The notes below the pieces were generated by a model. That model had not been told where the DNA came from and did no database searches. It was given only the letters and a program-made list of their open reading frames with translations. Shown here piece by piece: positions 913 through 52,069 of a DNA stretch of 62,741 nucleotides. The position numbers and the translations under genes are program-made. Within the stretch, counting starts at the first letter, position 1. Each line of letters begins with the position of its first letter. This DNA comes from Candidatus Latescibacterota bacterium (GTDB taxonomy: Bacteria > Latescibacterota > UBA2968): the NCBI GenBank assembly GCA_038279365.1, contig JAYODI010000026.1:1-62741 (forward strand), read 5' to 3'.

Positions 913-995
913 AAAACATTATTATTACGTTCGTTTTCAGCGGTGAAGGCTACCGTGGGGCCGCTGATTCAATACAAAAGCAAGGAGAGACACAC

Positions 996-1670: not shown

Positions 1671-1685
1671 TTTATGTTTCAATAA

Positions 1686-1760
1686 GCCGATAGATCGCGC
1701 GGCGATCTGTTCTTCGTCAAGGGGAGAGGGGGAGGAATAGCATCGCGCGATCTATCTGGC
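1686..1760 (+). other. long GC-rich hairpin with a G-rich loop in the 3' region of the operon
   Basis: gatagatcgcgcg (1689-1701) is the exact reverse complement of cgcgcgatctatc (1744-1756); inner ctgttcttc/gaggaatag pairing. Confidence 0.7.
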
Positions 1761-1766
1761 AACATC

Positions 1767-1799
1767 AAAAGCGAAGGTTTTTTTTTACCTTCGCTTTTT
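1767..1799 (+). terminator. intrinsic terminator
   Basis: aaaagcgaaggt/accttcgctttt inverted repeat with T tract. Confidence 0.75.
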
Positions 1800-1908
1800 G
1801 TTGTTTGGGGCCATTATTTGGGTTGACGATGGTTGCTGAGTAAAAGTATATTGCAATCACGGAAATTAGTAAAAATTATATTTTTTATGTTTAACATATT
1901 AAAAATTT

Positions 1909-2817: not shown

Positions 2818-2824
2818 GGTAGGC

Positions 2825-3805: not shown

Positions 3806-3882
3806 AGCTTGTATTTTTGATGGGTTTTGATTATCATACTTCCTCGTTAATGTGAGCAAATGTTTTGGTATGGGAGTCATTT

Positions 3883-38373: not shown

Positions 38374-39339
38374 ATGAGCGAGAAGCCTTTCGGGGGCGAG
38401 GGGGAAGTCATTTGTATGGTTTGTAAGACGGCCATTCCTGTGGCACGTCTTCAGGTTGTACCTGATGCGAAATTGTGCGTGACGTGTCAGGGAAAAGTTG
38501 AAAGGGGGTTGCTCGACCTTAACGCATTTTTGGTGGGCGATTTGGGGATTGAAGAAGAAAAAGAACCACAACCTTTGGAGATACAAGAAGATCGTTTGGT
38601 GGTAGGCACTTGGTCGGGTGGGTTTTTGGAAGTGGCCGATCAAAGTGGAAAAATGCGTGCGCTGTTGCGCGAAGGCAAAAAAGAAGAGGCACTGGCTTTG
38701 GTGCAGGCATTGCCAATTGAGGCACAGGCTGCACTGGTGGTGGTGGATGAAGATCCAGAAGAAGCCCTTTCTATAACGGGTATGGATCGTTTGGGAAACC
38801 CAGGTTATCGTTCTGAGGTGGTGAGTTTGTTGCCCACCGAGATGCTGACGGGGCTTATTGCCTATGACGGGGAGGAGAAACGGTTTAATACACGGTTGAT
38901 TCAGGCCATGACACCTGGCACATTTAGCCGAACAGTGTCTGATACTTTAGAGCCGATAGACAATGCTGAGGCACGCGCGGAGGTGACTTGGGAGTGGCTG
39001 GAGGCTTTGGCTGAGCTTCTCGATGTGAACAAACGCGCAGAATTGTTGCGCAGTGTCGAACCCGAATTGTTGGAGGACGCGCTGATTACACGTATTCACC
39101 ATTTTAACTTGAACAAAACGGTAACCTCTGTCAATATAGATGGTGTTGAGTGGGGCGTGGATATGTTTCGGGTATTTTCCGAAGACAGTGCCGTGGGGCC
39201 TTTGCCCAGCAAGTTTATTGAAGATGTGAAGGTGGGTAGTGTGATGGATTCGCTTTATGAAGCCGCTCCCGATGTGATGAGTGCGATGGTGCGTGGCGCT
39301 TGGGAGAGGCAATTTGATGGATGGGAGGATTTGGAATGA
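38374..39339 (+). CDS. TraR/DksA C4-type zinc finger fused to an unknown acidic helical domain
   Basis: CMVCKTAIPVARLQVVPDAKLCVTCQ matches C..C...Ip..Rl...P....C..C; RBS GGAGG. Confidence 0.75.
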   Translation: MSEKPFGGEGEVICMVCKTAIPVARLQVVPDAKLCVTCQGKVERGLLDLNAFLVGDLGIEEEKEPQPLEIQEDRLVVGTWSGGFLEVADQSGKMRALLREGKKEEALALVQALPIEAQAALVVVDEDPEEALSITGMDRLGNPGYRSEVVSLLPTEMLTGLIAYDGEEKRFNTRLIQAMTPGTFSRTVSDTLEPIDNAEARAEVTWEWLEALAELLDVNKRAELLRSVEPELLEDALITRIHHFNLNKTVTSVNIDGVEWGVDMFRVFSEDSAVGPLPSKFIEDVKVGSVMDSLYEAAPDVMSAMVRGAWERQFDGWEDLE

Positions 39340-40292
39340 ATCCATTGGCAAGATTAGATTTAAGCCGATTCCAGATTGACGATGAAAGTTTTGTTGGGCA
39401 AGCCATTGCTTTGGGCATGCGTTTTAACAAACTCCCCTCTCAGACATCGGATGCTTTGTTGGGTTTTTTGCGTGCTAAGGGGTTGTATTATGGGCAACGC
39501 AATCGATCTGGCATTGCCATTGCCAGAGATGGTTTGGAGCGCGGTGTGCGCCAAGCGTTGATCTGTTTGGATATGGGGCTTAAAGATACGTCTCAAGGCG
39601 ATCTCAATACGGCTGTTGAGTTGTTGGCGCAGGGTGATTTTGAGGCCATTCGAAAAAATGGATATCAAATTGCTTTTTTCCAATTGCAAGAAATTCGCAA
39701 AAGCAGTTTGGCTTTGCTCACGCGCCCAACGGCTACTTTTTTACAAGAAGAACATCGCAATTTGATGCGGTGGTCTACTTTGGTACCCGAAACGTGGACA
39801 CGGCCTCCAGATGATTTAGAAGAAGAAGCGATGTTGGTTGATGTCCGAACAGATTATGGTGTTTTTTTGCAAACGCAAGCCCGTATGGATTTTCTCAATT
39901 CGATTCCCAATGAGGCGCTTAATCAATTGCAACAATCGGTTTCGGATGGTCGATCTTTTGATGGTTTGTTGCGCAATTTGATTTTGGCGTTGGCGTTGGA
40001 TTTGGAAACACTTTTGCCATCGGCGATGGAAATCGAACGGTTTAGAGAAACGTGTTTTGAACAAAACAAAATTCGGCCTGAGATTCGGGATAAGGTTTTG
40101 CATTTGATGGACCGCCAGCTTGAAGCCAGTGTTTTGAAGGCGTTTCATCGGTCTGAAATTCGTACATCAGTAGAAGATGAAATTGAATTTTTAGAGCAAG
40201 TTTCGGGTGGCGATATGGTCAACTTTTTCTTGTTGCCCGGAAAAAAGGCTGTGACGGCAGATGATTTATTGGGGGGAGAGGCAATCGCGTAA
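39336..40292 (+). CDS. hypothetical helical protein (possibly DUF6178-related), translationally coupled
   Basis: ATGA overlap with the upstream gene and RBS GGAGG; the family guess is from memory only. Confidence 0.65.
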   Translation: MNPLARLDLSRFQIDDESFVGQAIALGMRFNKLPSQTSDALLGFLRAKGLYYGQRNRSGIAIARDGLERGVRQALICLDMGLKDTSQGDLNTAVELLAQGDFEAIRKNGYQIAFFQLQEIRKSSLALLTRPTATFLQEEHRNLMRWSTLVPETWTRPPDDLEEEAMLVDVRTDYGVFLQTQARMDFLNSIPNEALNQLQQSVSDGRSFDGLLRNLILALALDLETLLPSAMEIERFRETCFEQNKIRPEIRDKVLHLMDRQLEASVLKAFHRSEIRTSVEDEIEFLEQVSGGDMVNFFLLPGKKAVTADDLLGGEAIA

Positions 40293-40315
40293 TATTTTTT
40301 TAAAGGCGACGTGTT

Positions 40316-40347
40316 GGGGCGTGCTCGTGAGGGTACGTCCCATTTTT
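40316..40347 (+). terminator. probable terminator
   Basis: ggggcgtgctc-GTGA-gggtacgtccc (with G-U pairs) followed by a T-rich tract. Confidence 0.55.
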
Positions 40348-40444
40348 ATTTTTAAGAACACACAGGGTTTGAAACAGGGTGATGTGATTAAAAGACGAAT
40401 GTTGTTGTATCTCAAAAAGGGTGTGCTTTTTTTGTTGTCGGTAT

Positions 40445-40470
40445 GAACCTCTATCATCCAGGCGGTGTCA
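40445..40470 (+). promoter_or_regulatory. candidate ECF-sigma autoregulatory promoter
   Basis: GAACCT-N16-GTCA about 20 nt upstream of the sigma start codon. Confidence 0.4.
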
Positions 40471-40489
40471 TTGTAGCAGAGGCCCTTTT

Positions 40490-41080
40490 ATGACTCCAAC
40501 AGATGCAGAACTGATACAGCGCATATTAAACCGAGACACAGATGCATTTGCTGTGTTGTTTGATCGGTATATGGTTCAGGTGACCGATCACTTGGCACGT
40601 ATGTTGAAAGAAAGTGGTGCCGCAGATGATGTGGCACAAGAAGTGTTTTTGCGTGTTTGGAGTCGGGCAGATCAGTGGTCTGGTGCGGGATCATTTCGGG
40701 CGTGGTTGTTGCGCATTGCGACCAATTTGGCTCTGAATCATTTGCGAGGCAAAAAACGTCGTCGCGAATTGCCTTTGGAGATGCCTTCTCTCTATGACGA
40801 CGATGAAGATGAAAACCTTGTTCCTGGTTGGATGATCGATCACGCATCTTTGGGCCCAGATGCACAGATTGAACAATCGGAACAACAGCAGATGATTCGG
40901 CAAATGATTTCCGATTTGCCAAAAGATAAACGAGAGGTTTTTGAAATGGTTCACAAGGATGAGTTGGCCCTTCAGGAGGTGGCCAAGCGCTTGGACATTC
41001 CTGAAGGAACTGTAAAGTCTCGGTTGTTTCACGCACGAAAAAGATTGGTCCTTGCTTGGCAAGAAAGAACAGGGGAATAG
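40490..41080 (+). CDS. ECF (group 4) RNA polymerase sigma factor
   Basis: ADDVAQEVFLRVW, FRAWLLRIATNLALN (sigma2); EVAKRLDIPEGTVKSRLFHARKRL (sigma4). Confidence 0.95.
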   Translation: MTPTDAELIQRILNRDTDAFAVLFDRYMVQVTDHLARMLKESGAADDVAQEVFLRVWSRADQWSGAGSFRAWLLRIATNLALNHLRGKKRRRELPLEMPSLYDDDEDENLVPGWMIDHASLGPDAQIEQSEQQQMIRQMISDLPKDKREVFEMVHKDELALQEVAKRLDIPEGTVKSRLFHARKRLVLAWQERTGE

Positions 41081-41146
41081 CGCACCACGGGCATTGGTGA
41101 GATGTTTTTTCGCATTTGGACATCATCATGTTTTGGAGGATATAAA

Positions 41147-44100
41147 ATGGCAATTGATATGCAGGCACCGTGGCATAAAGATTCTTGGGATGCATTTTTG
41201 CAAAATGGGTTGCCCCGTTTATTGGCTGACCGTGTGGGGATTGCAGGATACAATATTGAGCAGATAGATACCTATTTTTGTCGGTTGCATTTGTCAGTGA
41301 AGGGAACGCGGGGCTTAACCGATGTGGTTTATGAAAATATCCCTTTGTGTGATGACTTGGGGCGGTTTCGTGTTGATGGGTATACGCGCATAGTGGTACC
41401 CAAACCCACAGAAGTAGATTTGGAAAAGGCCGACATTTTGTGTGTGGGTGAGCAAGTTTTGGGGTTTTTGGCTACACAAATTGGCGACGTGCCAGAGGGT
41501 ATTGTGGGAACAGATGCGATTTTGGCGTGTTTGCCTTTGGCCGAGTGGATTCACGAATTTTTTGTTTCCGAACCGACGTCACAGTATCTGCAAATGACAA
41601 ATGATGTGGATATGCACACCCACTTGCGACGCATTACTTTATACACACTTTTGGGTGAAGCGATTGACGACAAGTATGTCGTTCACCCGTCACAAGAAGG
41701 GCGTGTTTGTTTGTTTGCCACACCCGAAGGACCCAATATTTCGCGCATTTTTGAAGTGGCGTTAGGGGCAACGATTCGAGATGGCAAGTTGATTGTTGTG
41801 GATGATACCCCTGCAATGGCCTTGGGGAGCAATGCGTCGATGATTCCGTTTTTGGAACACGACGATACCAACCGGTCTTTAATGGGCATGAATATGGTGC
41901 GCCAATGGGTGGGCGTGCCAAACCCAAAGTGGCCACGTGATGAGGTGGGTGTTTGGCACACCTACCACAGTGAATATGACGGGCTCAAACCCGAAACAGA
42001 ACCGGCCTTGGTGCAAACGGGTTGTGAGACAGATGATGCTTACTTTTGGAAAGGCTATAATCTGCTGACCGCTTTTATGTCTTGGGACGGCGATACCTAT
42101 GAAGATGGCGTGGTGATCAGTGAGTCGGCGGCAAAAAAAATGACGCAACCCCAAGGTGTGGCATTGGGCGATAAATTGAGCAATCGACACGGTTACAAGG
42201 GGGTGGTGACACGGATTTTACCCGACGCAGATATGCCATACTTGCCCGATGGCACGCCGGTGGAATTGATTGTGAGTGTGTGCTCATTGCCTTCTCGAAT
42301 GAATATGGGGCAATTGCGAGAGGCGGCATTGGGGCGTGTGGCAAAGGCCGAGGGCAAACCCGTGATTGTGCCGCCATTTGCTGGGCCGTCAACGGAAGAA
42401 ATAAAAGGGCGATTGAAAGCCAATGGATTGTCTGATGATGGAATGGAACAACTGACGTTAAAGGGGAATGCACTTCCGCGACGCACAACAGCAGGGTGGG
42501 TGTATTGGGGGCGGTTGAGTCATATGGTGAAAAATAAGATTCACTTTGCGGTGCATCCTCAAGAGAGAGGGCAGTTTTTGGGCGAGATGGAGTTTGTTGC
42601 GCTGAAAGAAGCGGGTGCGGTGGCTCTTGTGAATGAGTTTTTCAATACGTGTTCTGCCGAACATCCAGAAGCCGATTCTTTGGCTGATCGTGTGTCTAAT
42701 GGAACGGTATCACCTGCTGGTGCACCTTCGGCAAGATATGGTGCTTTGACCAGGCGATTAGGCTGTGACGGCGTGGTGGCGTCACTGGGTGATAAAGGCG
42801 TGTCATTTTCAACTAAACAGTCGGGTGATTTTTCTTTGGCGCGTTCGGTGGCGCATCCGTGGCTTTCCGGGCATCAATTGTCTCATATTGGGCAGACCGA
42901 TTTGCCTGAGGGCGAGGCGGTGCAAGAGGCCAACGCGCGTTTGGAACAGATGGTTGCCAAGGGTGCGCCTCAGGTGCTGATTGATCGGGCAACAGACACC
43001 TTGTCAGAGCGGGTTCAGGCTTTTTATAATGTGTTGGTGACACGAAGGGATTTGTGCTTTCAGGCGCGGGTAATTTTTAGCGGGCGTTCGGTCATTGTGC
43101 CCAATAAACATTTTAAATATGACCAAGTGGGTGTACCAGAAGAAATGGCGTGGGCATTGTTTGGGCCGTTTGTGACACGGGCATTGGGCAGTGACACGGA
43201 CGTGAAAAAACGCTCGAAAAAAGCAGAGCAGGCGTTGGATGAGGTGATGGCAAAAATGTGGATTGTTTCAACGCGTGCCCCTGCGGTGTCACCCACTTCG
43301 TTTTTGGCATTTCATCCTGTGCGTGTTTCGGGTGATGCGATTCAAGTGCCCATTTTGAGCAGCAAGCTGATGGATGCCGATTTTGATGGCGATCAAATGG
43401 CTTTGTTGTTGCCCGTGACGGATGAGGGGCAACAGGCTGCGCGCGATCATTTAACTGTTAAGGCACATTTGACCCGCGACCCCAGTTTGATTCGGCGTGA
43501 AAAAATTCACCCCATGCACGACGCGTTATTTGGTTTGGCCACGTTGAGTATGACCGATGCTGGTTTGAAGGCATTGGAAGACATTGCGGGGGAACCTTTC
43601 AAGCGTGAAGGCAAGTTTTTAGATAAGAAGCATTTTATCGCTTTGCTGGAAAATGTGATGATCAAAGACGGGGCAGAAGCGGTGCTGGACTTGTCTGAAC
43701 GGTTGCAAAGAAAAGGTTTTGAAGTGGCCCAGCAAACAGGGGCTTCGATGGGTGCGTTTTTGGGTGGCGACCTTAATTTGCCCAATCCGCCAGAAGGAGA
43801 TGATGTGGATGAGTGGCGATCTTATGTGGATGAGTTGACGGCTGAATTGAGTCCGTTCGATGATTTTAACGATGACGAATTTGGCGTGATCGCCATGTTG
43901 GCCGAATGTGGTGCAAGGGGCAATTGGACACAGTTACGGCACTTTGTGGCCCCTCAGGGGTTGGTTCGCACCGCACGAGGTGACTTGATGCCCATTCGGC
44001 ATTGTTACCGAGATGGTCTCACCCCCCAAGAGATTATCACACGAACCGTTGGCGCACGCTTGGGCTTGGCCAATGCGTTGGCTGAAATGATGGAGGTCAA

Positions 44101-44257
44101 CCGCGATTTGTCCATTCAAGGGGCACCCAGTGGTTACGGTGTTTTGTCACGCGCTCGTCGCTCAGAAAAACCTGGCGTGGTGTTTGCCCGGGCCGCACAA
44201 AAGGGTGAAGTGGACCCTTTGACGGATGAATACAGTCGGTTGTTTGTTGGGGTGTAG
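41147..44257 (+). CDS. miniaturised fused beta/beta' DNA-directed RNA polymerase-like protein (1036 aa)
   Basis: RpoB motifs THLRR, TPEGPNI, IPFLEHDD.NRSLMG.NM.RQ, YEDG, GDKLSNRHGYKG, DMPYLPDGTP, PSRMN.GQ, GQ.LGEME, then RpoC motifs SGRSVI, RAPA, DADFDGDQM, GARG, GL..QE, GARLGLA, all in one frame; RBS GGAGG. Confidence 0.92.
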   Translation: MAIDMQAPWHKDSWDAFLQNGLPRLLADRVGIAGYNIEQIDTYFCRLHLSVKGTRGLTDVVYENIPLCDDLGRFRVDGYTRIVVPKPTEVDLEKADILCVGEQVLGFLATQIGDVPEGIVGTDAILACLPLAEWIHEFFVSEPTSQYLQMTNDVDMHTHLRRITLYTLLGEAIDDKYVVHPSQEGRVCLFATPEGPNISRIFEVALGATIRDGKLIVVDDTPAMALGSNASMIPFLEHDDTNRSLMGMNMVRQWVGVPNPKWPRDEVGVWHTYHSEYDGLKPETEPALVQTGCETDDAYFWKGYNLLTAFMSWDGDTYEDGVVISESAAKKMTQPQGVALGDKLSNRHGYKGVVTRILPDADMPYLPDGTPVELIVSVCSLPSRMNMGQLREAALGRVAKAEGKPVIVPPFAGPSTEEIKGRLKANGLSDDGMEQLTLKGNALPRRTTAGWVYWGRLSHMVKNKIHFAVHPQERGQFLGEMEFVALKEAGAVALVNEFFNTCSAEHPEADSLADRVSNGTVSPAGAPSARYGALTRRLGCDGVVASLGDKGVSFSTKQSGDFSLARSVAHPWLSGHQLSHIGQTDLPEGEAVQEANARLEQMVAKGAPQVLIDRATDTLSERVQAFYNVLVTRRDLCFQARVIFSGRSVIVPNKHFKYDQVGVPEEMAWALFGPFVTRALGSDTDVKKRSKKAEQALDEVMAKMWIVSTRAPAVSPTSFLAFHPVRVSGDAIQVPILSSKLMDADFDGDQMALLLPVTDEGQQAARDHLTVKAHLTRDPSLIRREKIHPMHDALFGLATLSMTDAGLKALEDIAGEPFKREGKFLDKKHFIALLENVMIKDGAEAVLDLSERLQRKGFEVAQQTGASMGAFLGGDLNLPNPPEGDDVDEWRSYVDELTAELSPFDDFNDDEFGVIAMLAECGARGNWTQLRHFVAPQGLVRTARGDLMPIRHCYRDGLTPQEIITRTVGARLGLANALAEMMEVNRDLSIQGAPSGYGVLSRARRSEKPGVVFARAAQKGEVDPLTDEYSRLFVGV

Positions 44258-44288
44258 ATAGGTAATAGTGATTGAGAATGTGAGTCGT

Positions 44289-44325
44289 AAGGCGTGTCTG
44301 CAAACAAGCAGACACGCCTTTTTTT
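44289..44325 (+). terminator. intrinsic terminator closing the sigma-polymerase operon
   Basis: aaggcgtgtctgc/gcagacacgcctt followed by a T tract. Confidence 0.85.
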
Positions 44326-44417
44326 GAAACAAAATGGAGCAATAACCGACAATCTCAGGGAATCATTTGTTCAAATGACCTATTGATAAATCACAAATAT
44401 CTCTCGCCCCAATCACC

Positions 44418-44441
44418 GTAGGGGCGCGGTTCCCGCGCCCT
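44418..44441 (+). repeat. GTAG-family REP-like palindrome (single copy here)
   Basis: GTAGGGGCGCGG-TT-CCCGCGCCCT. Confidence 0.5.
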
Positions 44442-44565
44442 AATTTTAGCGTTATTCGCGCCAAAATTTTAATGGCGATAAAATGTTAATTTTATTTTTT
44501 ACATTGCGTGGAAGATTCGTAATGATTTTTTGAGGTGATTGATTAAGAAATATTTTTTTTAAGGA

Positions 44566-45096
44566 ATGAAAATGGAACGGTTATTTCACGTGAGCGATCA
44601 GGCTGATATTCAACGCTTCGAACCACGGGTGTCACCTTCGGTAAATGAGGTTGTCCAAGACGACAAGGTGGTTTGGGCCATTGCTGAGAGTTTATTACAC
44701 AATTATTTGTTTCCGCGAGATTGCCCGCGCGTGACGTTTTACGCAGGCGAGCAAACCACGCAAGAAGATCGTGAACGGCTGTGGCAAACGAGTACCGCCA
44801 AACACATTGTGGCCATTGAGTCGTGTTGGGTGAGTAATATGTTGACGGAGACGTTATACGGTTACGTGTTGCCTGACGAGACGTTTGAAAAGACGGATGA
44901 TATCGCACGGTATTACATTTCTCGCAAAGCCGTTGAGCCGATTTCTGTGATCGTTTTTAACAATTTGTTTTTAGAATTGTCTCGGCGCGATGTTGAGGTG
45001 CGAATTCTTCCGTCTCTTTGGGCTTTGCGAGACGCTGTGGTGAATTCTACAGTAAATTTCTCAATTATTCGAATGAGAAATGCCCAACCGAGATAG
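44566..45096 (+). CDS. conserved hypothetical protein (DUF6886-like)
   Basis: LFHVS....I.RFEPR, VWAI, NYLFPRDCPRV, FSIIRMRNA. Confidence 0.7.
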   Translation: MKMERLFHVSDQADIQRFEPRVSPSVNEVVQDDKVVWAIAESLLHNYLFPRDCPRVTFYAGEQTTQEDRERLWQTSTAKHIVAIESCWVSNMLTETLYGYVLPDETFEKTDDIARYYISRKAVEPISVIVFNNLFLELSRRDVEVRILPSLWALRDAVVNSTVNFSIIRMRNAQPR

Positions 45097-45353: not shown

Positions 45354-45404
45354 GATCGACTTGTGTTTGTAGAAGTGCAATGCGTGTTTGACCAAGGAGA
45401 TGAG

Positions 45405-45800
45405 ATGGGCAAGAAAAAACGATTGGCCGAGGCCGAGTGGGAAGTGATGGACTGTGTGTGGGATTTTGACCATCAGGTGACGGTGCGCGAGGTGCACGAA
45501 TTTTTGTATCCCAATGGGGAGAAAGCCTATACCACCGTTCAGACGATTATGAATATTTTGACGGAAAAAGGCGTTCTGTTGCGTCAAAAAATTGGACCCG
45601 TCAATGTCTATTCACCGGCTTTGTCACGTGAAGATGCCGCCCGTGATGAAACGCAGTCTTTGGTGGCGCGTATGTTTGAAGGCTCGTTTGGTGCATTGGC
45701 CACTTATTTGGTGAATTCTGACACGCTTTCTCGCGAAGAATTGGACGAATTAAAGTCGCTTATTGATGAACGTGAGCGCGATCAGGGAGGAGGTAAATAA
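45405..45800 (+). CDS. BlaI/MecI/CopY family repressor
   Basis: LAEAEWEVM..VW, AYTTVQTIMNILTEKG, FEGS; RBS AAGGAG. Confidence 0.93.
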   Translation: MGKKKRLAEAEWEVMDCVWDFDHQVTVREVHEFLYPNGEKAYTTVQTIMNILTEKGVLLRQKIGPVNVYSPALSREDAARDETQSLVARMFEGSFGALATYLVNSDTLSREELDELKSLIDERERDQGGGK

Positions 45801-48800
45801 TGATCCATACCTTGATTCAACTCGCCGAATCTTGGTGGCCGCTTTATGCGGTACATATGCTCGAAACGTCGTTGTTCATTTTGGTTGTGTGGGCACTTGA
45901 TCGGTGGGTGCATTTGGATACGCGACTGCGCTATTCATTGTGGCTGTGTGCATTGGTGAAGACGTTTGTGCCGCCTTTTTACGCGTTGCCTTTGCCTACG
46001 TTTTTGTCTGAGGCACCCACGCCCGTTCAGCCGGTATCCTTTGGTGGGGAAGCTGTGTGGTCAGAGATGTCTTATGTTGCGCCTGTTGCGTTGCCACCTG
46101 AGCCGATTCCAATGGTCTTTTGGGCTTTTACGCTGTGGAGTGTATCAGTTATTGTTTTTGTTGGGATGACGCTGTGGCGCAATCTCGCTTTTCAACGCAC
46201 GTTGGGCATTGCGAATCCCGTGTCTTTGTCTGGCGATTTGGACGATTTGACCCAAGGAGCCAATCTCAAAGTTTTCTCAAAAGCCAATCTCACATCTCCG
46301 TTGCTGGTGGGCGTGGTGAAACCGCGTTTGTATTTGCCATCCACTTGGCAAACCTGGACGCCCACCCAATTACGCGGCATTGTGGCGCATGAATTGGCGC
46401 ATTATCACAACCGCGATTTGTGGGCATTGGCCTTCCAAGTTTTGGCCACGGTGTTTTGTGGTCTTAATCCTTTGATTTGGCTGGTGAACCGTCGCTTGGC
46501 GCATTTGCGCGAGTTGCGTTGTGATGAAGATGCGTTGCTCAAGTCTGGCATTTCACCCGTGGAATATGGCAAGTTGCTTTACGCGTTTTTAGATGCCAAT
46601 GCACACCCAGGGTTGCCCGCGTTGGGCTTTAACGAAAAAGACACACCGCTTAAGAAACGTTTTGAACACGTTCTCAATTTTAAGGGGGGCACGATGAAAC
46701 GATCCAAATGGCAATACGCAATTCCAGTTTTGGTCGCCTTGGCGATTGTGCCGTTTTCAATTCGAGAAACATATTCACAACCTCAGGAAGTGGTGCAAAA
46801 AGCAAGTGACACACCTTTATTGAACACGCCATCAAGTGAACAGGGGAGAATACGAGTCAAACCAATCAAGCGGATTCCAGCCTCCTACCCAGAGAGCGCA
46901 GAGAAGAATGGCATTGAAGGGTATGTGCTCGCGGAGTTGACGATTGATCCTGATGGCACGGTCAGTGGTATTACCATGCTTGAAGGTGATACGATGTTTT
47001 TGAATTCGGTGACAACAGCATTGCTTCAATACCGCTATACACCGTTTACACACGCAAATTCGATTAAGAAAAAACAAATCATTGCGTTTCAATTGGCAGG
47101 AGACAGTCGCCCTGTGTATAGTCCTGCCGAAGAGGTGATGAAAAAATCAGACTTTGGCCTAATGGTTGTGATGGGTGAAGCACCCGGGGCTAATTCTGAA
47201 AATAAAACATCTACAGTTTCAGCAGATGTTTTAACACGGGTAGATTTTATGCCCTTAGGTGAAAAGCATGTTAAGATGTCATTGCTTGTGGGGGTAGACG
47301 GTGCGACGCCACGGGACCAAGAAGTGCTAAAAGCCAATCGGTCAGAGATATTAAAGACCATTCATAAGATTGTGAGTGGTGACGGACGAGATGTTTTTTA
47401 TGAAGAAGGTATGCGTTTTCAAGTGCGACAAGAAATTCGTTTCATGCTTGAACATCAATTGAAGGTCAAGATCAAAGATGTCAAACTTGGAGATGCCCAG
47501 GCCAAAACAGAGCTTACTCAAATGTCTGATATTTGGGTGAACTACAAGGGTGATATGTTAATAAACATGAATAAAGCCGTTACTGTCAATGAGCTGGAGG
47601 CGTCGTTTAGGTCATTAAAAAATGATCAAAATACAAAGACATTGTTGATGCGGGTAGATCGTGGTGCGCCACAACATATCATTGATGCCATTCAACAAAG
47701 TGCCACACGTGTAGGCATTGAGGTGCGCGATACTGGGGGCCCCCCATTGATTCAAGAGCCATCAGGTATCACACAGGCTGATGGTCTTCAAATTTTACAG
47801 TTTTTTAAAGTGGATCATAAACCCAAGCCGATTACCAAAGTGGATCCAATTTACCCACCTAATGCCAAAGCCAAAGGATTAACGGGTAAAGTGTTTCTCA
47901 AGTTTTTAATTCATACAGATGGCTCTGTAAGTGACGTGAAGGTGTTACGGGGAAAGGAAGAATTCCACCAAGCCGCAATTGACGCCATCCTCCAATACAA
48001 ATTTGAACCGGCCAAACATCAAGGTCAAATTGTACCCGTGTGGATGACTCAACCGATTTCATTTCAGTTAGAGAATTCTCTGGATAAATCAGAATCTTCA
48101 ACACCTGAATCGGATATGTTAAAGGTTTTGGAAACGAGAAATGCTGAAAGGAACCAAATTCTCGATGCCTCTCAAGTAGACGAAAAACCTCATCCCGCTC
48201 GAATCGTCACACCACAATATCCAGAAGAAGCAAAGGCGCAAGGCATCGAAGGAAATGTATTGGTGAGTGGTGTGGTGAATACGGATGGAACCGTAAGTGA
48301 TTTAAAGATTGTGAGTGGTGATGAGATGTTTCATGAGTCTGCTTTGGTAGCCGCAAAACAAATGCGGTTTCGCCCCGCTAAACATCAAGGCCAAACGGTT
48401 CCTGTGCGGTTGACAATGCCGATGGATTTTCGACTGAAAAGTTCCCAAAGCAATAGACAGTTACCATTGGGGCTTAGAGGAGGGTTTTTCGGGAATAAGA
48501 GAATGTCTGAAATCTGGATCAATACCAAAGGAGATTTGTTAATAGATCAATCCAAAGCCGTCACTCTGGAAACTCTGGGTTCTGAATTGGCACAGTTAAA
48601 AGAACAAAAGAATATTGATACCATATTGTTGAAACCTGATGTCAAAACACCTATGGACCACGTGCAAAAGGTTTTGGATGTTGTGGGGCAAACAGGGTTG
48701 AAAGTGCATATGTTCAGTTTTGATCCTGCTGAACTTAAGGAACGCAATAGGCCAAAGGATCTGAATAACATAGAGTTCTACCAGGCCGATGTGAAACCCG

Positions 48801-49669
48801 AACCGATTCATCAAGTGGCACCTGTTTACCCAGAAATAGCGCGTAAAGCGGGTTTGACGGGTAAGGTGTTTTTGAAGTTTCGTGTGAATGTGGATGGCAG
48901 CGTGAGTGATGTTTCAGTGTTGAGAGGGCAACAAATTTTCCGAAAAGCCGCAATGGAGGCGATTGAAAAATTCCGTTTCAAGCCCGCCGAATATGACGGC
49001 AAAATTGTTGCTGTGTGGATGACTCAACCCGTGAGTTTCAGATTGGGATTGGGAAAACCATTAGAAGCACAAACGCTTGATTTGGGAACCTTTACCATAA
49101 AAGTACCAAATGGTCATGATGGCAACGCATTGATACAACCTCGCCTGACCTTAAATGTCATATCGGCGGGTGCGGCAGATGTGATCACTGACGATTTGGA
49201 CAAAGCACAAAAAATGGCATCGTCTTATCTGTCTTCAATTCCTTTAGATCAGTGGGTATCGGCAGAACAACAAAATGCAATTTTAGAAGGTGTGCGAGAG
49301 CAAGTGAATGTCGGTTTTGGTGCGCCATTGATTAACAGTGTGACGTTTTCAAACCTCACCTTAACCCCTTCCGAATATCTCGCTGAGAATCGGGAATTCA
49401 AACTACACACCAATTTCCCAAATCCATTTAATCCTGAAACGGCGATTCAATATGAAGTGGCCGAACCCGTTTTTGTGAGAATGGAAATCTACAACGTCAC
49501 TGGGCAAGTCATTCGTACATTGGTTGCAGAAGACAAATCTCCTGGCAAATATGAAACACGGTGGGATGGCAAAGATGATCAGGGCAAACTTGTCGCAAGT
49601 GGTGTCTATTATTATCACATCAATGCGGGATCATTCAATGCCGTAAAGAAAATGCAACTGGTGAAGTAA
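45800..49669 (+). CDS. BlaR1/M56 metallopeptidase fused to four TonB C-terminal domains, ExbD-like and FliL-like domains and an FlgD-Ig-like tail
   Basis: HELAH, NPLIW, RELRCD; four YP..A...G..G.V repeats; NFPNPFNPET...WDGKD..G..VASGVY. Confidence 0.85.
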   Translation: MIHTLIQLAESWWPLYAVHMLETSLFILVVWALDRWVHLDTRLRYSLWLCALVKTFVPPFYALPLPTFLSEAPTPVQPVSFGGEAVWSEMSYVAPVALPPEPIPMVFWAFTLWSVSVIVFVGMTLWRNLAFQRTLGIANPVSLSGDLDDLTQGANLKVFSKANLTSPLLVGVVKPRLYLPSTWQTWTPTQLRGIVAHELAHYHNRDLWALAFQVLATVFCGLNPLIWLVNRRLAHLRELRCDEDALLKSGISPVEYGKLLYAFLDANAHPGLPALGFNEKDTPLKKRFEHVLNFKGGTMKRSKWQYAIPVLVALAIVPFSIRETYSQPQEVVQKASDTPLLNTPSSEQGRIRVKPIKRIPASYPESAEKNGIEGYVLAELTIDPDGTVSGITMLEGDTMFLNSVTTALLQYRYTPFTHANSIKKKQIIAFQLAGDSRPVYSPAEEVMKKSDFGLMVVMGEAPGANSENKTSTVSADVLTRVDFMPLGEKHVKMSLLVGVDGATPRDQEVLKANRSEILKTIHKIVSGDGRDVFYEEGMRFQVRQEIRFMLEHQLKVKIKDVKLGDAQAKTELTQMSDIWVNYKGDMLINMNKAVTVNELEASFRSLKNDQNTKTLLMRVDRGAPQHIIDAIQQSATRVGIEVRDTGGPPLIQEPSGITQADGLQILQFFKVDHKPKPITKVDPIYPPNAKAKGLTGKVFLKFLIHTDGSVSDVKVLRGKEEFHQAAIDAILQYKFEPAKHQGQIVPVWMTQPISFQLENSLDKSESSTPESDMLKVLETRNAERNQILDASQVDEKPHPARIVTPQYPEEAKAQGIEGNVLVSGVVNTDGTVSDLKIVSGDEMFHESALVAAKQMRFRPAKHQGQTVPVRLTMPMDFRLKSSQSNRQLPLGLRGGFFGNKRMSEIWINTKGDLLIDQSKAVTLETLGSELAQLKEQKNIDTILLKPDVKTPMDHVQKVLDVVGQTGLKVHMFSFDPAELKERNRPKDLNNIEFYQADVKPEPIHQVAPVYPEIARKAGLTGKVFLKFRVNVDGSVSDVSVLRGQQIFRKAAMEAIEKFRFKPAEYDGKIVAVWMTQPVSFRLGLGKPLEAQTLDLGTFTIKVPNGHDGNALIQPRLTLNVISAGAADVITDDLDKAQKMASSYLSSIPLDQWVSAEQQNAILEGVREQVNVGFGAPLINSVTFSNLTLTPSEYLAENREFKLHTNFPNPFNPETAIQYEVAEPVFVRMEIYNVTGQVIRTLVAEDKSPGKYETRWDGKDDQGKLVASGVYYYHINAGSFNAVKKMQLVK

Positions 49670-49990: not shown

Positions 49991-50151
49991 TTCCATTGTA
50001 GTGCAGGAAACGCAAGTTCAGCGAAGCTCATTCATTCCTGCGCGAAGGTGATGTGGTTCCCGAAGTCATTTTTCAATCTCCATCATTCCTGTGCTTTTGA
50101 TCTTCAGTCCGAAGGACTTGCCCTATCATTGCACGGGAATTCATTCCCGTG
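49749..50151. repeat. cluster of short REP-like palindromic repeats
   Basis: ttttgatcttcagtccg(g/a)aggactt occurs three times; gcacgggaattcattcccgtgc occurs twice (~49788 and ~50131). Confidence 0.7.
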
Positions 50152-50227
50152 CCTAACCTCCTTTTCAATCTCAATTCCCTGCAAAACCCGTATTATGTTT
50201 TTCCCAAATAAATAGGTCACACACGCT

Positions 50228-52069
50228 ATGAAACAATCACACGTAATCATAGTAATCCTCTTGACGCTATGCGCCTGTTCCCCCGGCATAGACACCTATG
50301 TCCGCCAACTGCAATACCCCAACACAGATATGCGGGTTTACGCCGCTGAAAAGTTAGGCCAAAGCAAAAATCCCAACGCCGTGCCACACCTTATCCAAGC
50401 CCTAAACGATGAAAAGCTCAGTGTGCGTTTGGCTGCCATAGACGCTTTAGGTTATTTACAAGATCATCGCGCCACCCAGTCGCTTTTGCCATTTTTGCGC
50501 AATGAACGCTTGCGGTTTGTATTTGCCACCATAGAAGCTTTGGGGCGTATAGGCGATCCCGATGCGGTTGATTCATTGAATGCGATTGTTGCCGATAACC
50601 TGCCCACCATTCGCCTTGCTGCCATTGATGCTTTGGGGCAAATAGGAAGCCCCAAGGCAACGGATGTATTGACCGAACAATTCAAAAATCCATCATCCGA
50701 TGTCAGGCGAATGACCGCACTTGCAATGGCGCGTATTGCAGATCGGAAAACGATGGGGGTGCTTATTGAATCACTTGCCGATCCTTCGGATGCGGTTTCC
50801 AAGATGGCCTGTTATGCCTTAGATAAAATGGATGCCCAGTGGCGGAATGGAGAGGAAGCCAAGACCGCTCTCTCCCAATTCAAATATGACCTCATGATGA
50901 AAGACATTGTTGACAATGATGCAATTCTCAAACGTTATGGACTGCTCAAAGGGTTAAACACAATTGATCCCAATTGGCACCATCGTGCGTGGGGAGAAGC
51001 GGTTACTCGGCACTACGAAGGCTATCTCAATAGCCCAATCCCTCGCGAACGGTGGATGGCTGCACGTGTGTTGGGTGACATCGGAGATGTGCGTGCTATT
51101 GATGCACTCTTGGCGTGTTTAAACCATGAAGATCGGGGCGTGAGCAAAAATGCGATTTTGTCATTGGGCAAATTAGGTGATCGGCGTGTCCTTCCCTCAT
51201 TAAGAGAAATATTGTCTGGTGACGATTTACAACTTAAAAGCGCAACCGCCACGGCATTGGCCGACTTGGGTGACACAACAGCCATTCCTTTGCTCATGGA
51301 TCAAATCACGCCAGAGATCATGCAATTGCGCATTGGGCGAATAGGCAGAGACATTGCATATAGCATCGCCAATGCCTTAGGCAAATTAAAGGCCACACAA
51401 AGTGTCGATCTCCTGATGCAATTGGTGACCCATTCCCAATCGGGAACACGTGTTCAAGCTCTTCGCGCATTGGGCAATATTGGAGATTTCAAAGCCACTT
51501 CCAGTGTGCGATTGGCTTTGGTGGACCGTGATTTTCATGTGCGAACAACAGCGGTTAAGACATTGGCCAAGTTGGGTGATGTGCATGCTGTTAACGATTT
51601 AATCACACTGTTGGGAAGCGGGAAAGTATCTGACCCGCTTTTGGTTGAATCATTGGATCGTTTGGAGCCACGCTGGCGAGAACGAAAGTTGGCCCAATCA
51701 CAAATTTCGCAGCTGATTGCACAATACAAGTCTGGTAACACACAAGACCAAAAAGACATCATCGCTGTATTGGCAGAGGTGGGTGGGGCACGTGCAGATG
51801 AGATTTTGTCGGAGGTTTTAAAGAAGCGCAATCTGTTGCTTATTGCCCAGGCCCATAAATACTATATCACACAAGGTATTTCTCAAGCTTTACCCGTTTT
51901 AAAACATGCCTTAGAAGCCTATGGCAACGAAAGAATGGTCAAAGTCTATCTGGCTTCTGGCTACGAACCCTTATCTCAAGCAGCCCGCATCTGGGCACAC
52001 GATCATGGTATGGCGCTTGTCTCTGGCCTTGATATGGAACCCGAAGTAGGCATTTGGGCAGGTGGTTGA
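50228..52069 (+). CDS. HEAT-repeat lipoprotein
   Basis: LCAC lipobox; many VR..A..ALG.IGD..A repeats. Confidence 0.85.
   Translation: MKQSHVIIVILLTLCACSPGIDTYVRQLQYPNTDMRVYAAEKLGQSKNPNAVPHLIQALNDEKLSVRLAAIDALGYLQDHRATQSLLPFLRNERLRFVFATIEALGRIGDPDAVDSLNAIVADNLPTIRLAAIDALGQIGSPKATDVLTEQFKNPSSDVRRMTALAMARIADRKTMGVLIESLADPSDAVSKMACYALDKMDAQWRNGEEAKTALSQFKYDLMMKDIVDNDAILKRYGLLKGLNTIDPNWHHRAWGEAVTRHYEGYLNSPIPRERWMAARVLGDIGDVRAIDALLACLNHEDRGVSKNAILSLGKLGDRRVLPSLREILSGDDLQLKSATATALADLGDTTAIPLLMDQITPEIMQLRIGRIGRDIAYSIANALGKLKATQSVDLLMQLVTHSQSGTRVQALRALGNIGDFKATSSVRLALVDRDFHVRTTAVKTLAKLGDVHAVNDLITLLGSGKVSDPLLVESLDRLEPRWRERKLAQSQISQLIAQYKSGNTQDQKDIIAVLAEVGGARADEILSEVLKKRNLLLIAQAHKYYITQGISQALPVLKHALEAYGNERMVKVYLASGYEPLSQAARIWAHDHGMALVSGLDMEPEVGIWAGG

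What the first reader, a model, noticed from the sequence alone, without database searches (positions are those of the whole stretch)
40490..44325. Two-gene system: ECF sigma plus a miniaturised single-chain beta-beta' RNA polymerase
Seen: one uninterrupted 1036-aa ORF with RpoB motifs followed in order by RpoC motifs, including YED (42098), GDKLSNRHGYKG (42167, both barrel lysines) and DADFDGD (43373-43393). It lies 66 nt behind an ECF sigma and is closed by a terminator, with no rplKAJL/rpsL neighbours and no phage genes. Known: normal beta+beta' total roughly 2700 aa; the Helicobacter/Wolbachia fusions are full length; YonO- and crAss-type single-subunit enzymes are phage-encoded and much less RpoBC-like. 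Inference: a second, streamlined, chromosomal RNAP-derived enzyme with a dedicated sigma. It could be an orthogonal transcription system, a primer/short-RNA synthetase or a sigma-sequestering decoy. I do not know of a description of it.
Basis: partly seen in the sequence, partly recalled or inferred. Interest (0 to 1): 0.96.

Follow-up and report, generated by a model that had tools for sequence, protein, structure and literature searches.

The report
Miniature single-chain RNA polymerase with own sigma
This bacterial chromosome carries a two-gene operon, found in several bacterial phyla, that encodes a dedicated sigma factor and a one-third-size, single-chain version of the cell's RNA polymerase, probably a second, self-contained transcription machine that nobody seems to have described.

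Summary
Window 41147-44257 encodes a 1036-aa protein that joins a cut-down RNA polymerase beta to a cut-down beta'. It lies 66 nt behind an ECF sigma (40490-41080), and the pair is bracketed by two strong terminators.

It is not a chimera or a pseudogene.
- Full-length relatives (39-97% identity) occur in up to 202 species genomes of several phyla, many on complete 4.5-8.4 Mb chromosomes.
- The catalytic residues are invariant, and dN/dS is 0.10-0.24.
- AlphaFold gives one compact fold (pLDDT 92, pTM 0.91).
- The beta lobes and flap and the beta' zinc finger, rudder, trigger loop and jaw are gone. Both barrels, the bridge helix and the sigma-binding clamp helices remain.

An orthologous sigma sits directly upstream in 72 of 80 loci, and the two genes overlap in 24 of them. 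An ECF-type promoter, TGAACY-N13-CGGTGTC, precedes the sigma gene in 71 of 73 loci.

My best reading (about 0.5) is a sigma-dependent, two-protein transcription system that switches itself on; its targets are unknown. The main rival is that sigma only drives the gene through the host polymerase.

Ten literature searches found no description. Every named relative is called a hypothetical protein or carries only Pfam domain names, and none is shown as coming from a cultured strain.

The parts
40315..40349 (+). Intrinsic terminator (12-pair stem plus T-run) that ends the upstream gene pair and insulates the operon.
40444..40469 (+). ECF-type promoter: -35 TGAACC (40444-40449) and -10 CGGTGTC (40463-40469), ending 20 nt before the sigma ATG.
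   Evidence: Sequence. The same motif at fixed spacing was found upstream of sigma in 71 of 73 sequences (72 loci plus the window). It is the only strict match in the 62.7-kb window.
40490..41080 (+). ECF sigma factor, 196 aa: sigma-2 and sigma-4 joined by a linker that carries a conserved VPxWMID..LGPD motif.
   Evidence: TIGR02937 scores 111.3 bits against a cutoff of 42.9; 42-sequence alignment; P112 and W114 conserved in 90% or more.
41135..41139 (+). Shine-Dalgarno sequence GGAGG, 7 nt before the ATG of the polymerase gene.
41147..44257 (+). Single-chain mini RNA polymerase, 1036 aa plus stop. Residues about 1-557 are beta-derived and residues about 558-1036 are beta'-derived.
42098..42106 (+). 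YED of the beta-type barrel. E319 and D320 are invariant in 27 sequences; D320 stays invariant and E319 is 90% or more in 109.
42167..42202 (+). GDKLSNRHGYKG, the beta-type barrel motif with both lysines. G341, D342, R347, H348, G349 and K351 are invariant in 109 sequences.
42905..43036 (+). Two long helices (residues 587-604 and 609-630) that align to the beta' clamp coiled coil, the site where sigma region 2 docks on canonical polymerase.
   Evidence: secondary structure; aligned to M. tuberculosis beta' 347-383; profile 583-803 matches beta' 341-596. N596 and R598 are nearly invariant.
43373..43393 (+). DADFDGD, the Mg-binding aspartate triad of the beta'-type barrel. D745, D747, G748 and D749 are invariant in 109 sequences.
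44024..44119 (+). Bridge helix (residues 960-991), preceded by an F-loop-like SGARG segment.
   Evidence: (aligned to beta' 775-864 of M. tuberculosis and 718-790 of C. thermocellum).
44289..44326 (+). Intrinsic terminator (13 pairs, 8 G-C, T-run) that closes the operon.
   Evidence: sequence.

Best explanation
The two genes form a self-contained, sigma-dependent transcription module.

Proposed mechanism:
1. A conserved ECF-type promoter (TGAACY-N13-CGGTGTC) drives a bicistronic mRNA for the sigma and a 115-kDa single-chain polymerase. The polymerase keeps only the catalytic heart of bacterial RNA polymerase: both double-psi barrels, switch 2, the F-loop and bridge helix, and the clamp coiled coil.
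2. The sigma docks through region 2 on the retained clamp helices. It recognises the -35 and -10 elements and opens the DNA, and the mini-enzyme makes RNA at the DFDGD / two-lysine centre.
3. The operon's own promoter carries the motif, so the module probably switches itself on. Equal amounts of the polymerase would capture the sigma, taking the place of the missing anti-sigma factor.
4. Without the flap, lobes, rudder, trigger loop and jaw, the enzyme should be slower and less accurate. It should also be blind to many factors and inhibitors that act on the host enzyme.

Shown here: the anatomy, the conservation, the gene linkage, the promoter motif and the predicted fold.
Inferred: sigma binding to the mini-enzyme, DNA-templated RNA synthesis and self-activation.
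Unknown: the targets other than the operon itself.
For: Family and selection
- The best 120 hits of each of two searches are, apart from 4 fragments, 991-1107 aa long with 99-100% coverage.
- A genome scan found 202 stretches that encode a relative. The 80 kept are labelled Latescibacterota, Poribacteria, Gemmatimonadota, Planctomycetota, Chloroflexota, Armatimonadota, Hydrogenedentota and Candidatus Moanabacter. Many lie on complete 4.5-8.4 Mb chromosomes.
- About 75 full-length representatives at 50% identity score 500-1066 bits. Full-length beta-beta' fusions of 1948-2522 aa appear only at 254 bits or below.
- dN/dS is 0.10-0.24 for the polymerase (10 pairs) and 0.08-0.26 for the sigma (9 pairs).

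Active site
- Invariant in 109 sequences: G341 D342 R347 H348 G349 K351; D320; D745 D747 G748 D749; R252 Q253; G922 A923.

Fold
- AlphaFold2 gives pLDDT 92.1 and pTM 0.91 with no disordered segment.
- Foldseek matches only bacterial or plastid beta and beta' chains.

Sigma linkage
- A same-strand upstream sigma hit is present in 76 of 80 loci.
- It is a full-length orthologue (41-77% identity to the window's sigma) in 72.
- Distance to the polymerase gene among those 72: overlap or zero in 24, 1-30 nt in 16, 31-110 nt in 17, 111-400 nt in 5, more than 400 nt in 10.
- No other gene is conserved beyond single clades.
- Pairwise identities of sigma and polymerase correlate (Spearman 0.65, 2145 pairs from 66 loci). 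This is not a probability, because the pairs are not independent.

Promoter
- The motif lies upstream of sigma in 71 of 73 sequences. The spacing between GAAC and GTC is 18 nt in 69 and 17 nt in 2, and the motif mostly ends 16-26 nt before the start codon.
- A strict pattern gave 80 matches in 1.42 Mb (both strands), 68 of them at the listed sigma genes.
- In L067, which has no adjacent sigma, the motif sits directly in front of the polymerase gene.

Sigma docking site
- Residues 587-630 align to the beta' clamp helices, and the N-x-R-L motif is conserved.

Complex prediction (sigma against polymerase residues 1-800): weak support
- Score 0.40 (runs 0.49, 0.40, 0.37); best of 3 controls 0.00.
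- 116 of 157 solved complexes and 2 of 215 mismatched pairs reach the mark. At 0.60 or under, only 18 of those 157 do, as do both mismatches that passed.
- The runs agree in at least 43% of contacts, and the partner's pLDDT is at least 64.
- My own alignments were used, so the counts hold only roughly. Sigma-beta' complexes are solved, so the pass may reflect likeness rather than binding.
Against: - The beta flap, whose tip helix holds sigma region 4 on canonical polymerase, is deleted: C. thermocellum beta 794-929 has no counterpart. How sigma-4 would be positioned for the conserved -35 element is therefore unexplained.
- The complex prediction passed only weakly, and no interface was reported.
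- No sigma-polymerase fusion protein was seen among the hits listed.
- In L029 the sigma has been deleted, leaving its last 9 codons, while the polymerase gene stays intact.
- In 10 to 12 Latescibacterota loci another gene lies between the two.
- No target promoter other than the operon's own was found in the window or in the 80 loci.
- Two residues that contact the NTP ribose in canonical enzymes are not kept. I identify them from memory as E. coli beta' R425 and N458. The Arg of HRLG aligns to a Pro, and the position before ADFDGD is variable. The substrate could therefore differ.
- The trigger loop is absent.
- No activity has been measured.
Confidence: 0.5

Rival explanations
1. The sigma works only with the host's normal core polymerase. 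It switches on its own operon, and the mini-polymerase is simply the regulated product. The enzyme then acts without sigma, like YonO, on a template or a task still unknown, such as special DNA structures, RNA templates, primers or short RNAs.
For: - ECF sigmas are typically co-transcribed with what they regulate, and their promoters look like the one found here. The ECF paradigm is established knowledge, which I recall rather than tested.
- The flap, the canonical sigma-4 dock, is missing.
- The ribose-contact residues and trigger loop are not conserved. This would suit a non-standard substrate or template.
- YonO shows that a single-chain two-barrel enzyme lacking trigger-loop homology can be processive (PMC5467207, passages read).
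- In L029 the polymerase gene is intact although the sigma has been deleted.
Against: - The clamp coiled coil and its N-x-R-L motif are retained and conserved.
- Overlapping genes in 24 of 72 loci suggest equal dosing, as expected for partners.
- The sigma linker motif is conserved in loci labelled with several different phyla.
- The complex prediction gave a weak pass with clean controls.
- No other conserved output gene is present.
Confidence: 0.28
2. The protein is a regulatory sink. It acts as an anti-sigma-like decoy that holds the sigma, or other clamp-binding factors, away from the host polymerase. Catalysis would be irrelevant.
For: - It occupies the genomic position of the anti-sigma gene, immediately after an ECF sigma and often overlapping it.
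- No other anti-sigma candidate is conserved.
- It keeps the sigma-docking helices.
Against: - Every catalytic residue of both barrels is invariant in 109 sequences of 43-97% identity to the window's protein. The bridge helix, switch 2 and F-loop are kept as well.
- dN/dS is low over the whole 1036 aa.
- A decoy would need only about 50 residues.
Confidence: 0.05
3. The ORF is an assembly chimera, a decaying rpoBC pseudogene or a phage or plasmid remnant.
For: - The gene has the highest G+C of the window: 0.513 in 42001-44000 against 0.41-0.50 elsewhere.
Against: - The same junctions occur in all full-length loci and in more than 230 proteins from independent assemblies, including complete chromosomes.
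- The gene is under purifying selection.
- The predicted single fold is confident.
- None of the 50,697 phage records and none of the 72,556 plasmid records covers 80% or more of the protein.
- The window has no phage genes, and there is no PADLOC hit.
Confidence: 0.01

Closest known systems
Canonical bacterial RNA polymerase core (beta/RpoB plus beta'/RpoC) with an ECF sigma
   Same: - Clear sequence homology: E 5.7e-52 to beta and 6.2e-27 to beta'.
- The same order of conserved regions, the same two barrels with identical catalytic motifs, the bridge helix, switch 2 and the clamp coiled coil.
- The partner is a normal two-domain ECF sigma with an AAC/CGT-type promoter.
   Different: - One chain of 1036 aa instead of about 2,500-2,700 aa in two chains.
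- Missing from beta: the lobes (C. thermocellum beta 136-423), the flap (794-929) and smaller segments.
- Missing from beta': the N-terminal zinc-finger region, the rudder, the trigger loop with any insertion, and the jaw.
- It scores far below NCBI's cutoffs for rpoB and rpoC.
- No alpha or omega gene is nearby.
Full-length beta-beta' fusions (the Helicobacter and Wolbachia type; NCBIfam NF007172 and NF011417)
   Same: - Beta is followed by beta' in one reading frame.
- These are the top-scoring NCBIfam models.
   Different: - Those proteins are about 2,840-2,890 aa and are the cell's only polymerase.
- This protein scores 207-208 bits against cutoffs of 5372 and 4632.
- In the representative search, long proteins of 1948-2522 aa, which I take to be such fusions, appear only at 254 bits or below, well beneath the family.
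K2ORF6p (Rpo1) of yeast cytoplasmic linear plasmids (virus-like elements)
   Same: - The closest architecture: a beta::beta' fusion of 982 aa with roughly half of each subunit deleted and the lid and rudder missing (PMC2919709 and PMC6211774, passages read).
   Different: - That enzyme is eukaryotic and plasmid-borne.
- It needs a second small subunit (K2ORF7p) that carries the C-terminal beta' regions.
- It uses an ATNTGA upstream element and no sigma.
- Sykora et al. [quoted passage not shown]
- I did not compare the sequences directly.
YonO of Bacillus prophage SPbeta and YonO-like single-chain polymerases
   Same: - A single chain of about 100 kDa of the two-barrel type with no trigger-loop homology.
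- YonO shows that such an enzyme can be a processive DNA-dependent RNA polymerase (PMC5467207).
   Different: - YonO shares only a few residues with cellular polymerases, is prophage-encoded and has no known sigma.
- This family is plainly RpoB/RpoC-like, chromosomal and sigma-linked.
- tblastn of the protein against 50,697 phage records matched no record whose organism name begins with Bacillus.

Membership tests
Canonical RpoB / RpoC (NCBIfam equivalogs) | Whole-protein score above the curated cutoff. | tested here: not met
   NF001616 rpoB 194 bits against 896; TIGR02013 189.9 against 801; TIGR02386 rpoC 126.5 against 963.5.
Canonical RpoB / RpoC (NCBIfam equivalogs) | Two double-psi barrels with DFDGD, two lysines and ED. 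| tested here: met
   These residues are invariant or nearly so in 109 sequences.
Canonical RpoB / RpoC (NCBIfam equivalogs) | Beta lobes and flap; beta' zinc finger, rudder, trigger loop and jaw. | tested here: not met
   these regions have no counterpart in the alignments to solved beta and beta' chains. The names of the elements are recalled.
Canonical RpoB / RpoC (NCBIfam equivalogs) | Assembly with an alpha dimer and omega. | not tested
   There is no alpha or omega gene in the window. Binding was not modelled.
Full-length beta-beta' fusion (NF007172, NF011417) | A protein of about 2,840-2,890 aa that scores above the cutoff. | tested here: not met
   207.5 against 5372 and 208.3 against 4632. 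The length here is 1036 aa.
ECF (group 4) sigma-70 family | Only the sigma-2 and sigma-4 domains, with a family model score above the cutoff. | tested here: met
   Sigma70_r2 and r4_2. TIGR02937 scores 111.3 against 42.9. All 24 specific equivalog or subfamily models among the 25 shown (of 111 matched) fall below their cutoffs, for example PRK12513 at 122.4 against 206.
ECF (group 4) sigma-70 family | An autoregulated promoter with an AAC-type -35 and a CGT-type -10. | tested here: met
   TGAACY-N13-CGGTGTC in 71 of 73 sequences. That the sigma reads this promoter is inferred, not shown.
ECF (group 4) sigma-70 family | A co-transcribed anti-sigma factor. This is usual for the family, not universal. 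| tested here: not met
   the only gene conserved next to the sigma across clades is the mini-polymerase.
YonO-like single-chain polymerases | Homology to cellular polymerases limited to a few catalytic residues; prophage context. | tested here: not met
   Searches show extensive beta and beta' homology. Searches show a chromosomal context and no matching phage record.
Yeast linear-plasmid Rpo1 (K2ORF6p) type | A beta::beta' mini-fusion plus a separate small subunit with the C-terminal beta' regions. | tested here: inconclusive
   The fusion architecture is alike. No conserved third gene is present. I did not compare the sequence with K2ORF6p because none was at hand.

The most novel reading that the evidence does not exclude
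Free-living bacteria of several phyla run a second, autonomous transcription machine made of just two proteins: an ECF sigma and a 115-kDa single-chain core. It reads its own promoter class in parallel with the normal five-subunit polymerase. It would be the smallest sigma-dependent cellular-type RNA polymerase known and a natural proof of the minimal core. It lacks the flap, the trigger loop and much of the rifamycin-pocket sequence, so it might keep a small gene set running when the main enzyme is blocked by antibiotics, phage proteins or stress. A bolder variant rests on the lost ribose-contact residues: the enzyme may have relaxed sugar selectivity, and sigma may direct it to make primers or DNA.
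Probability: 0.45. Interest if true: 0.93.

Novelty: new variant of a known kind. Interest (0 to 1): 0.88.

Why it matters
Textbooks hold that bacteria have one RNA polymerase, whose roughly 400-kDa five-subunit core is invariant. The small single-chain relatives known so far belong to phages, prophages or yeast plasmids, and none is known to use a sigma factor.

A chromosomal, strongly conserved, sigma-coupled mini-polymerase would matter in four ways:
- It would show that a second cellular-type transcription system exists in bacteria.
- It would define by natural experiment which parts of beta and beta' suffice for sigma-directed transcription. That includes how sigma-4 can work without a flap.
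- It would offer a compact two-gene orthogonal expression tool whose promoter is already known.
- It would give a new data point on how the polymerase core can be reduced or was built up.

The family appears only in metagenome-assembled genomes among the hits I saw, which may be why it has been missed.

Tried and rejected
- **Sigma-polymerase fusion.** Long ORFs in L070 (1174 aa) and L072 (1238 aa) looked like fusions. Their N-terminal extensions are Arg/Pro/Gly-rich read-through in another frame of high-GC DNA, not sigma. Rejected.
- **Half a trigger loop.** I first read the C-terminus (...PGVVFARAAQKGEVDPL...SRLFVG) as the first trigger helix. HMMER instead pairs it, not significantly (i-Evalue about 5e3), with the beta' C-terminal region H motif. 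I now say only that no trigger loop is recognisable.
- **Defence system.** No PADLOC model matches the polymerase or its neighbours. The sigma gives only weak HTH-type hits.
- **Phage or plasmid origin.** No record covers 80% or more of the protein. The PHROG hits are to full-length phage beta- and beta'-like families. BFVD shows only polymerase subunits of giant viruses and phages.
- **Upstream gene pair as part of the system.** The pair at 38374-40292 (a DksA/TraR zinc-finger protein plus an unknown protein) is present in only 18-19 of 80 loci, all labelled Latescibacterota apart from one locus labelled only 'bacterium'. A terminator separates it from the operon.
- **More target promoters.** My first window pattern had the wrong spacing and missed the real site. 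The corrected scans found only the operon's own promoter. The 8 stray matches in other loci lie inside or antisense to ORFs, apart from one 66 nt before an 83-aa ORF in L017.
- **Known ECF group with a polymerase neighbour.** Neither the main text nor the one held supplement of Casas-Pastor 2021 mentions Rpb1, Rpb2 or RpoB.
- **A cultured host.** A second protein search, with a Chloroflexota member as query, again listed only metagenome or MAG proteins.
- **Iyer and Aravind 2012** (J Struct Biol) could not be read because it is not held.

Full report
**What is there**

On the + strand, a strong terminator (40315-40342 plus T-run) ends the preceding gene. An ECF-type promoter follows: TGAACC at 40444-40449 and CGGTGTC at 40463-40469. 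After it come:
- a 196-aa sigma gene (40490-41080);
- a 66-nt spacer with GGAGG at 41135-41139;
- a 1036-aa ORF (41147-44257);
- a 13-pair terminator (44289-44320).

I ran Pfam on 47 other ORFs of the window. The context is ordinary chromosomal: prs, hisG, hisI, nadA, accD, aroQ, transporters and regulators. There are no phage genes, no ribosomal-protein genes and no rpoBC genes. There are also no tRNA genes and no Rfam matches.

**The protein is a cut-down beta joined to a cut-down beta'**

Pfam finds Rpb2_6 (E 1.4e-43), Rpb2_3 and Rpb1_2 (5.9e-14). NCBIfam's rpoB, rpoC and fused-rpoBC models all match, but at 126-208 bits against cutoffs of 801-5372.

A profile of 109 family members aligns to solved chains as follows:
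- residues 11-85: weakly to the beta N-terminus
- residues 91-209: C. thermocellum beta 424-560
- residues 210-273: beta 628-692
- residues 283-320: beta 756-793
- residues 329-557: beta 930-1175, which runs to the beta C-terminus
- residues 583-803: M. tuberculosis beta' 341-596

In addition, residues 887-978 of the window's own protein align to beta' 775-864, the F-loop and bridge helix.

Several parts therefore have no counterpart. In beta these are 136-423 (the lobes) and 794-929 (the flap). In beta' they are the N-terminal zinc-finger part, the rudder segment, and everything between the bridge helix and the last 30 residues or so, meaning the trigger loop and jaw. The last 30 residues pair weakly, and not significantly, with the beta' C-terminal motif. 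The names of these elements, and the E. coli residue numbers used below, come from my memory of the polymerase literature and not from a tool.

AlphaFold2 with the 109-sequence alignment gives a single confident fold: mean pLDDT 92.1, pTM 0.91, and 816 residues at 90 or above. It shows a two-helix coiled coil at 587-630 and a long bridge helix at 960-991. Foldseek against the PDB returns only bacterial and plastid beta and beta' chains (E from 5.8e-25, TM 0.3-0.44 on the query). Foldseek against BFVD finds no whole-chain viral analogue.

**It is a real, widespread family under selection**

- A search of 5.8 billion proteins listed 120 best hits. Apart from four fragments, all are 1002-1107 aa long, cover 99-100% of the query and are 41-97% identical.
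- A second search with a Chloroflexota member as query listed 120 more, 991-1067 aa long.
- Every name given by a source is 'hypothetical protein' or a string of Pfam domains. Every organism name shown is an uncultured or candidate taxon, nearly all marked MAG.
- In the 1.84-billion representative library, about 75 full-length representatives at 50% identity score 500-1066 bits. Proteins of 1948-2522 aa, which I take to be full-length beta-beta' fusions, appear only at 254 bits or below.
- The scan of one genome per species (185,579 species) found 248 pattern matches, of which 202 encode a relative. The 80 kept are labelled Latescibacterota (the majority), Poribacteria, Gemmatimonadota, Planctomycetota, Chloroflexota, Armatimonadota, Hydrogenedentota and Candidatus Moanabacter. 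Many lie on complete chromosomes of 4.5-8.4 Mb.
- A FastTree of 74 members places the window next to L001, a Latescibacterota MAG (76% identity). Members cluster broadly by phylum label, with some mixing.
- None of 50,697 phage records and none of 72,556 plasmid records covers 80% or more of the protein.
- In 109 sequences these residues are invariant: G341 D342 R347 H348 G349 K351, D320, D745 D747 G748 D749, R252 Q253, G922 A923 and others.
- dN/dS in ten close pairs is 0.10-0.24 for the polymerase. In nine pairs it is 0.08-0.26 for the sigma.

**The sigma is a dedicated partner at the gene level**

A tblastn search with the window's neighbours on the 80 loci finds a sigma on the same strand upstream in 76. 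In 72 it is a full-length orthologue. The 41 that I aligned are 41-77% identical to the window's sigma.

Of the four loci without such a hit:
- L066 and L075 are cut by contig ends.
- L029 keeps only the last nine sigma codons, which points to a recent deletion.
- L067 has no sigma nearby.

Among the 72, the distance from the sigma stop to the polymerase start is zero or an overlap in 24, 1-30 nt in 16, 31-110 nt in 17, 111-400 nt in 5 and more than 400 nt in 10. The long gaps hold an ABC transporter or a 381-396-aa protein that was inserted in one Latescibacterota subclade.

Clustering all ORFs of the loci shows no other gene conserved beyond single clades, and therefore no anti-sigma factor. 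The sigma alignment shows a conserved motif, VPxWMID..LGPD, in the normally variable linker between sigma-2 and sigma-4. Pairwise identities of sigma and polymerase go together (Spearman 0.65 over 2145 pairs from 66 loci). These pairs are not independent, so this shows only co-inheritance.

**A conserved promoter**

In 71 of 73 sequences (72 loci plus the window), the 250 nt upstream of the sigma gene contain TGAAC[C/T], then 13 variable bases, then CGGTGTC or a close variant. There are 18 nt between GAAC and GTC in 69 of them and 17 nt in 2. The motif mostly ends 16-26 nt before the start codon. One of the two misses, L077, has the motif further upstream, and my start call there was probably wrong.

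A strict pattern matched 80 times in 1.42 Mb on both strands, 68 of them at the listed sigma genes. Of the other 12:
- 3 are at sigma genes that I had not listed or had mis-started.
- 1 (L067) lies directly in front of a polymerase gene that has no adjacent sigma.
- 8 lie inside or antisense to ORFs, apart from one 66 nt before an 83-aa ORF in L017, and look like chance.

The window has a single site. The motif has the AAC / CGT character of ECF promoters, which is established knowledge that I recall. The operon is therefore very probably switched on by its own sigma.

**Does the sigma bind the mini-polymerase?**

The segment that aligns to the beta' clamp helices is retained (M. tuberculosis beta' 347-383). 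On canonical polymerase this is the main dock for sigma region 2. Its N-x-R-L motif is nearly invariant (N596 and R598).

I predicted the complex of the sigma (42-row alignment) with residues 1-800 of the polymerase (109 rows). The result was weak support:
- The score was 0.40 (runs 0.49, 0.40, 0.37), and the best of 3 controls scored 0.00.
- 116 of 157 solved complexes and 2 of 215 mismatched pairs reach the mark. At 0.60 or under, only 18 of those 157 do, as do both mismatches that passed.
- The runs agree in at least 43% of contacts, and the partner's pLDDT is at least 64.
- No interface was reported.
- I used my own alignments, so the calibration holds only roughly.
- Sigma-beta' complexes are solved, so the pass may reflect likeness.

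Against binding in the canonical mode, the flap that holds sigma-4 is gone.

**Interpretation**

The invariant active site, the bridge helix, switch 2 and the overall fold point to a working nucleotide polymerase, not a decoy. The most economical model has four supports: the overlapping genes, the absence of any anti-sigma factor, the conserved linker motif and the retained clamp helices. In this model the sigma and the mini-core form a two-protein holoenzyme that reads TGAACY-N13-CGGTGTC promoters, its own included. I give this model about 0.5.

The main rival (about 0.28) is that the sigma works only with the host core to express a sigma-independent enzyme whose template is unknown. Four findings support it: the missing flap, the missing trigger loop, the replacement of the HRLG arginine by proline, and the variable residue before ADFDGD. 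I recall that these two positions contact the NTP ribose in E. coli (R425, N458).

The rifampicin-cluster region is also changed: SQYLQMTN stands where canonical beta has SQFMDQNN. The window side is, and the canonical side and its meaning are recalled. This makes a drug-insensitive backup enzyme conceivable, but that is speculation.

**Comparison with known systems and novelty**

The closest architecture is the beta::beta' mini-fusion K2ORF6p of yeast linear plasmids. It needs a second subunit and uses no sigma. In 2018 its fusion was called unknown in any other polymerase (PMC6211774 and PMC2919709, passages read).

YonO is a single-chain enzyme but barely resembles RpoB or RpoC, and it is prophage-borne (PMC5467207, abstract and passages). 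A 2021 overview of the two-barrel superfamily lists cellular, killer-plasmid, RdRP/YonO, transposon-type and PolD enzymes and nothing like this one (PMC7824862, passages).

Ten full-text searches found no description. Neither did the main text or the one held supplement of the ECF reclassification paper (PMC7826278).

The limits of that check:
- The library lacks most subscription journals.
- Iyer and Aravind 2012 is not held.
- bioRxiv supplements were closed.

I rate this a new variant of a known kind. It is a cellular-type two-barrel polymerase with a sigma, in a miniature single-chain form not described before.

**What stayed unchecked**
- Whether the same genomes hold canonical rpoB/rpoC, and where else the promoter occurs.
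- The metagenome and viral contig collections, which were closed.
- Any biochemical activity.

Noticed in passing
window 1-62741: GC skew is strongly and almost uniformly positive on the + strand. It is 0.08-0.29 in 2-kb windows except at 50001-52000, and the cumulative value rises to 6.1. This is far above what I recall as typical for bacteria. One by-product is long shadow ORFs on the opposite strand, for example 40488-41195 (-), 235 aa, opposite the sigma gene.
   Followed up: no
window 38374-40292 (+): Two overlapping genes lie just upstream of the operon. One is a 321-aa protein with an N-terminal DksA/TraR C4 zinc finger (Pfam 8.2e-9). The other is a 323-aa protein with no Pfam, PHROG or PADLOC match. 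The pair precedes the sigma in 18-19 of 80 loci, all labelled Latescibacterota apart from one locus labelled only 'bacterium'. A terminator separates it from the operon. DksA-type fingers bind polymerase channels (recalled), so an accessory role in that clade is not excluded.
   Followed up: partly
window 45363-49669 (+): A BlaI-type repressor is followed by a 1289-aa protein that combines a BlaR1 M56 peptidase domain, four TonB_C domains, an ExbD-like segment and a FlgD-Ig / type IX secretion tail. The pair lies downstream of the polymerase gene in 14 of 80 loci.
   Followed up: partly
L003-L009, L011, L012, L015, L016 (between sigma and polymerase genes): In one Latescibacterota subclade a gene has been inserted inside the operon. 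It is either a 586-620-aa ABC transporter (ATPase plus permease) or a 381-396-aa protein. No second copy of the promoter motif lies before the polymerase gene.
   Followed up: partly
L029:7975-8001 and L067:5146-5171: Two informative exceptions. In L029 the sigma gene is deleted down to its last nine codons, while the 1047-aa polymerase gene is intact. In L067 (Chthonomonadaceae) there is no adjacent sigma, but the promoter motif sits directly in front of the polymerase gene.
   Followed up: yes
window 42001-44000: The polymerase gene has the highest G+C of the window (0.513 against 0.41-0.50 elsewhere). The cause could be amino-acid composition or past horizontal transfer.
   Followed up: no
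window 44566-45096 (+) and 44420-44445: A DUF6886 protein (Pfam 5.8e-59) lies just downstream of the operon and recurs in only 1 of 80 loci. The spacer before it holds a G+C-rich palindrome, GGGGCGCGGTTCCCGCGCCC.
   Followed up: no
JAPPEG01 contigs (L027 and L078): One Gemmatimonadota bin carries two different copies of the polymerase gene on two contigs, one complete and one cut at residue 458. Each has its own sigma and promoter motif. This is either paralogy or a mixed bin.
   Followed up: no
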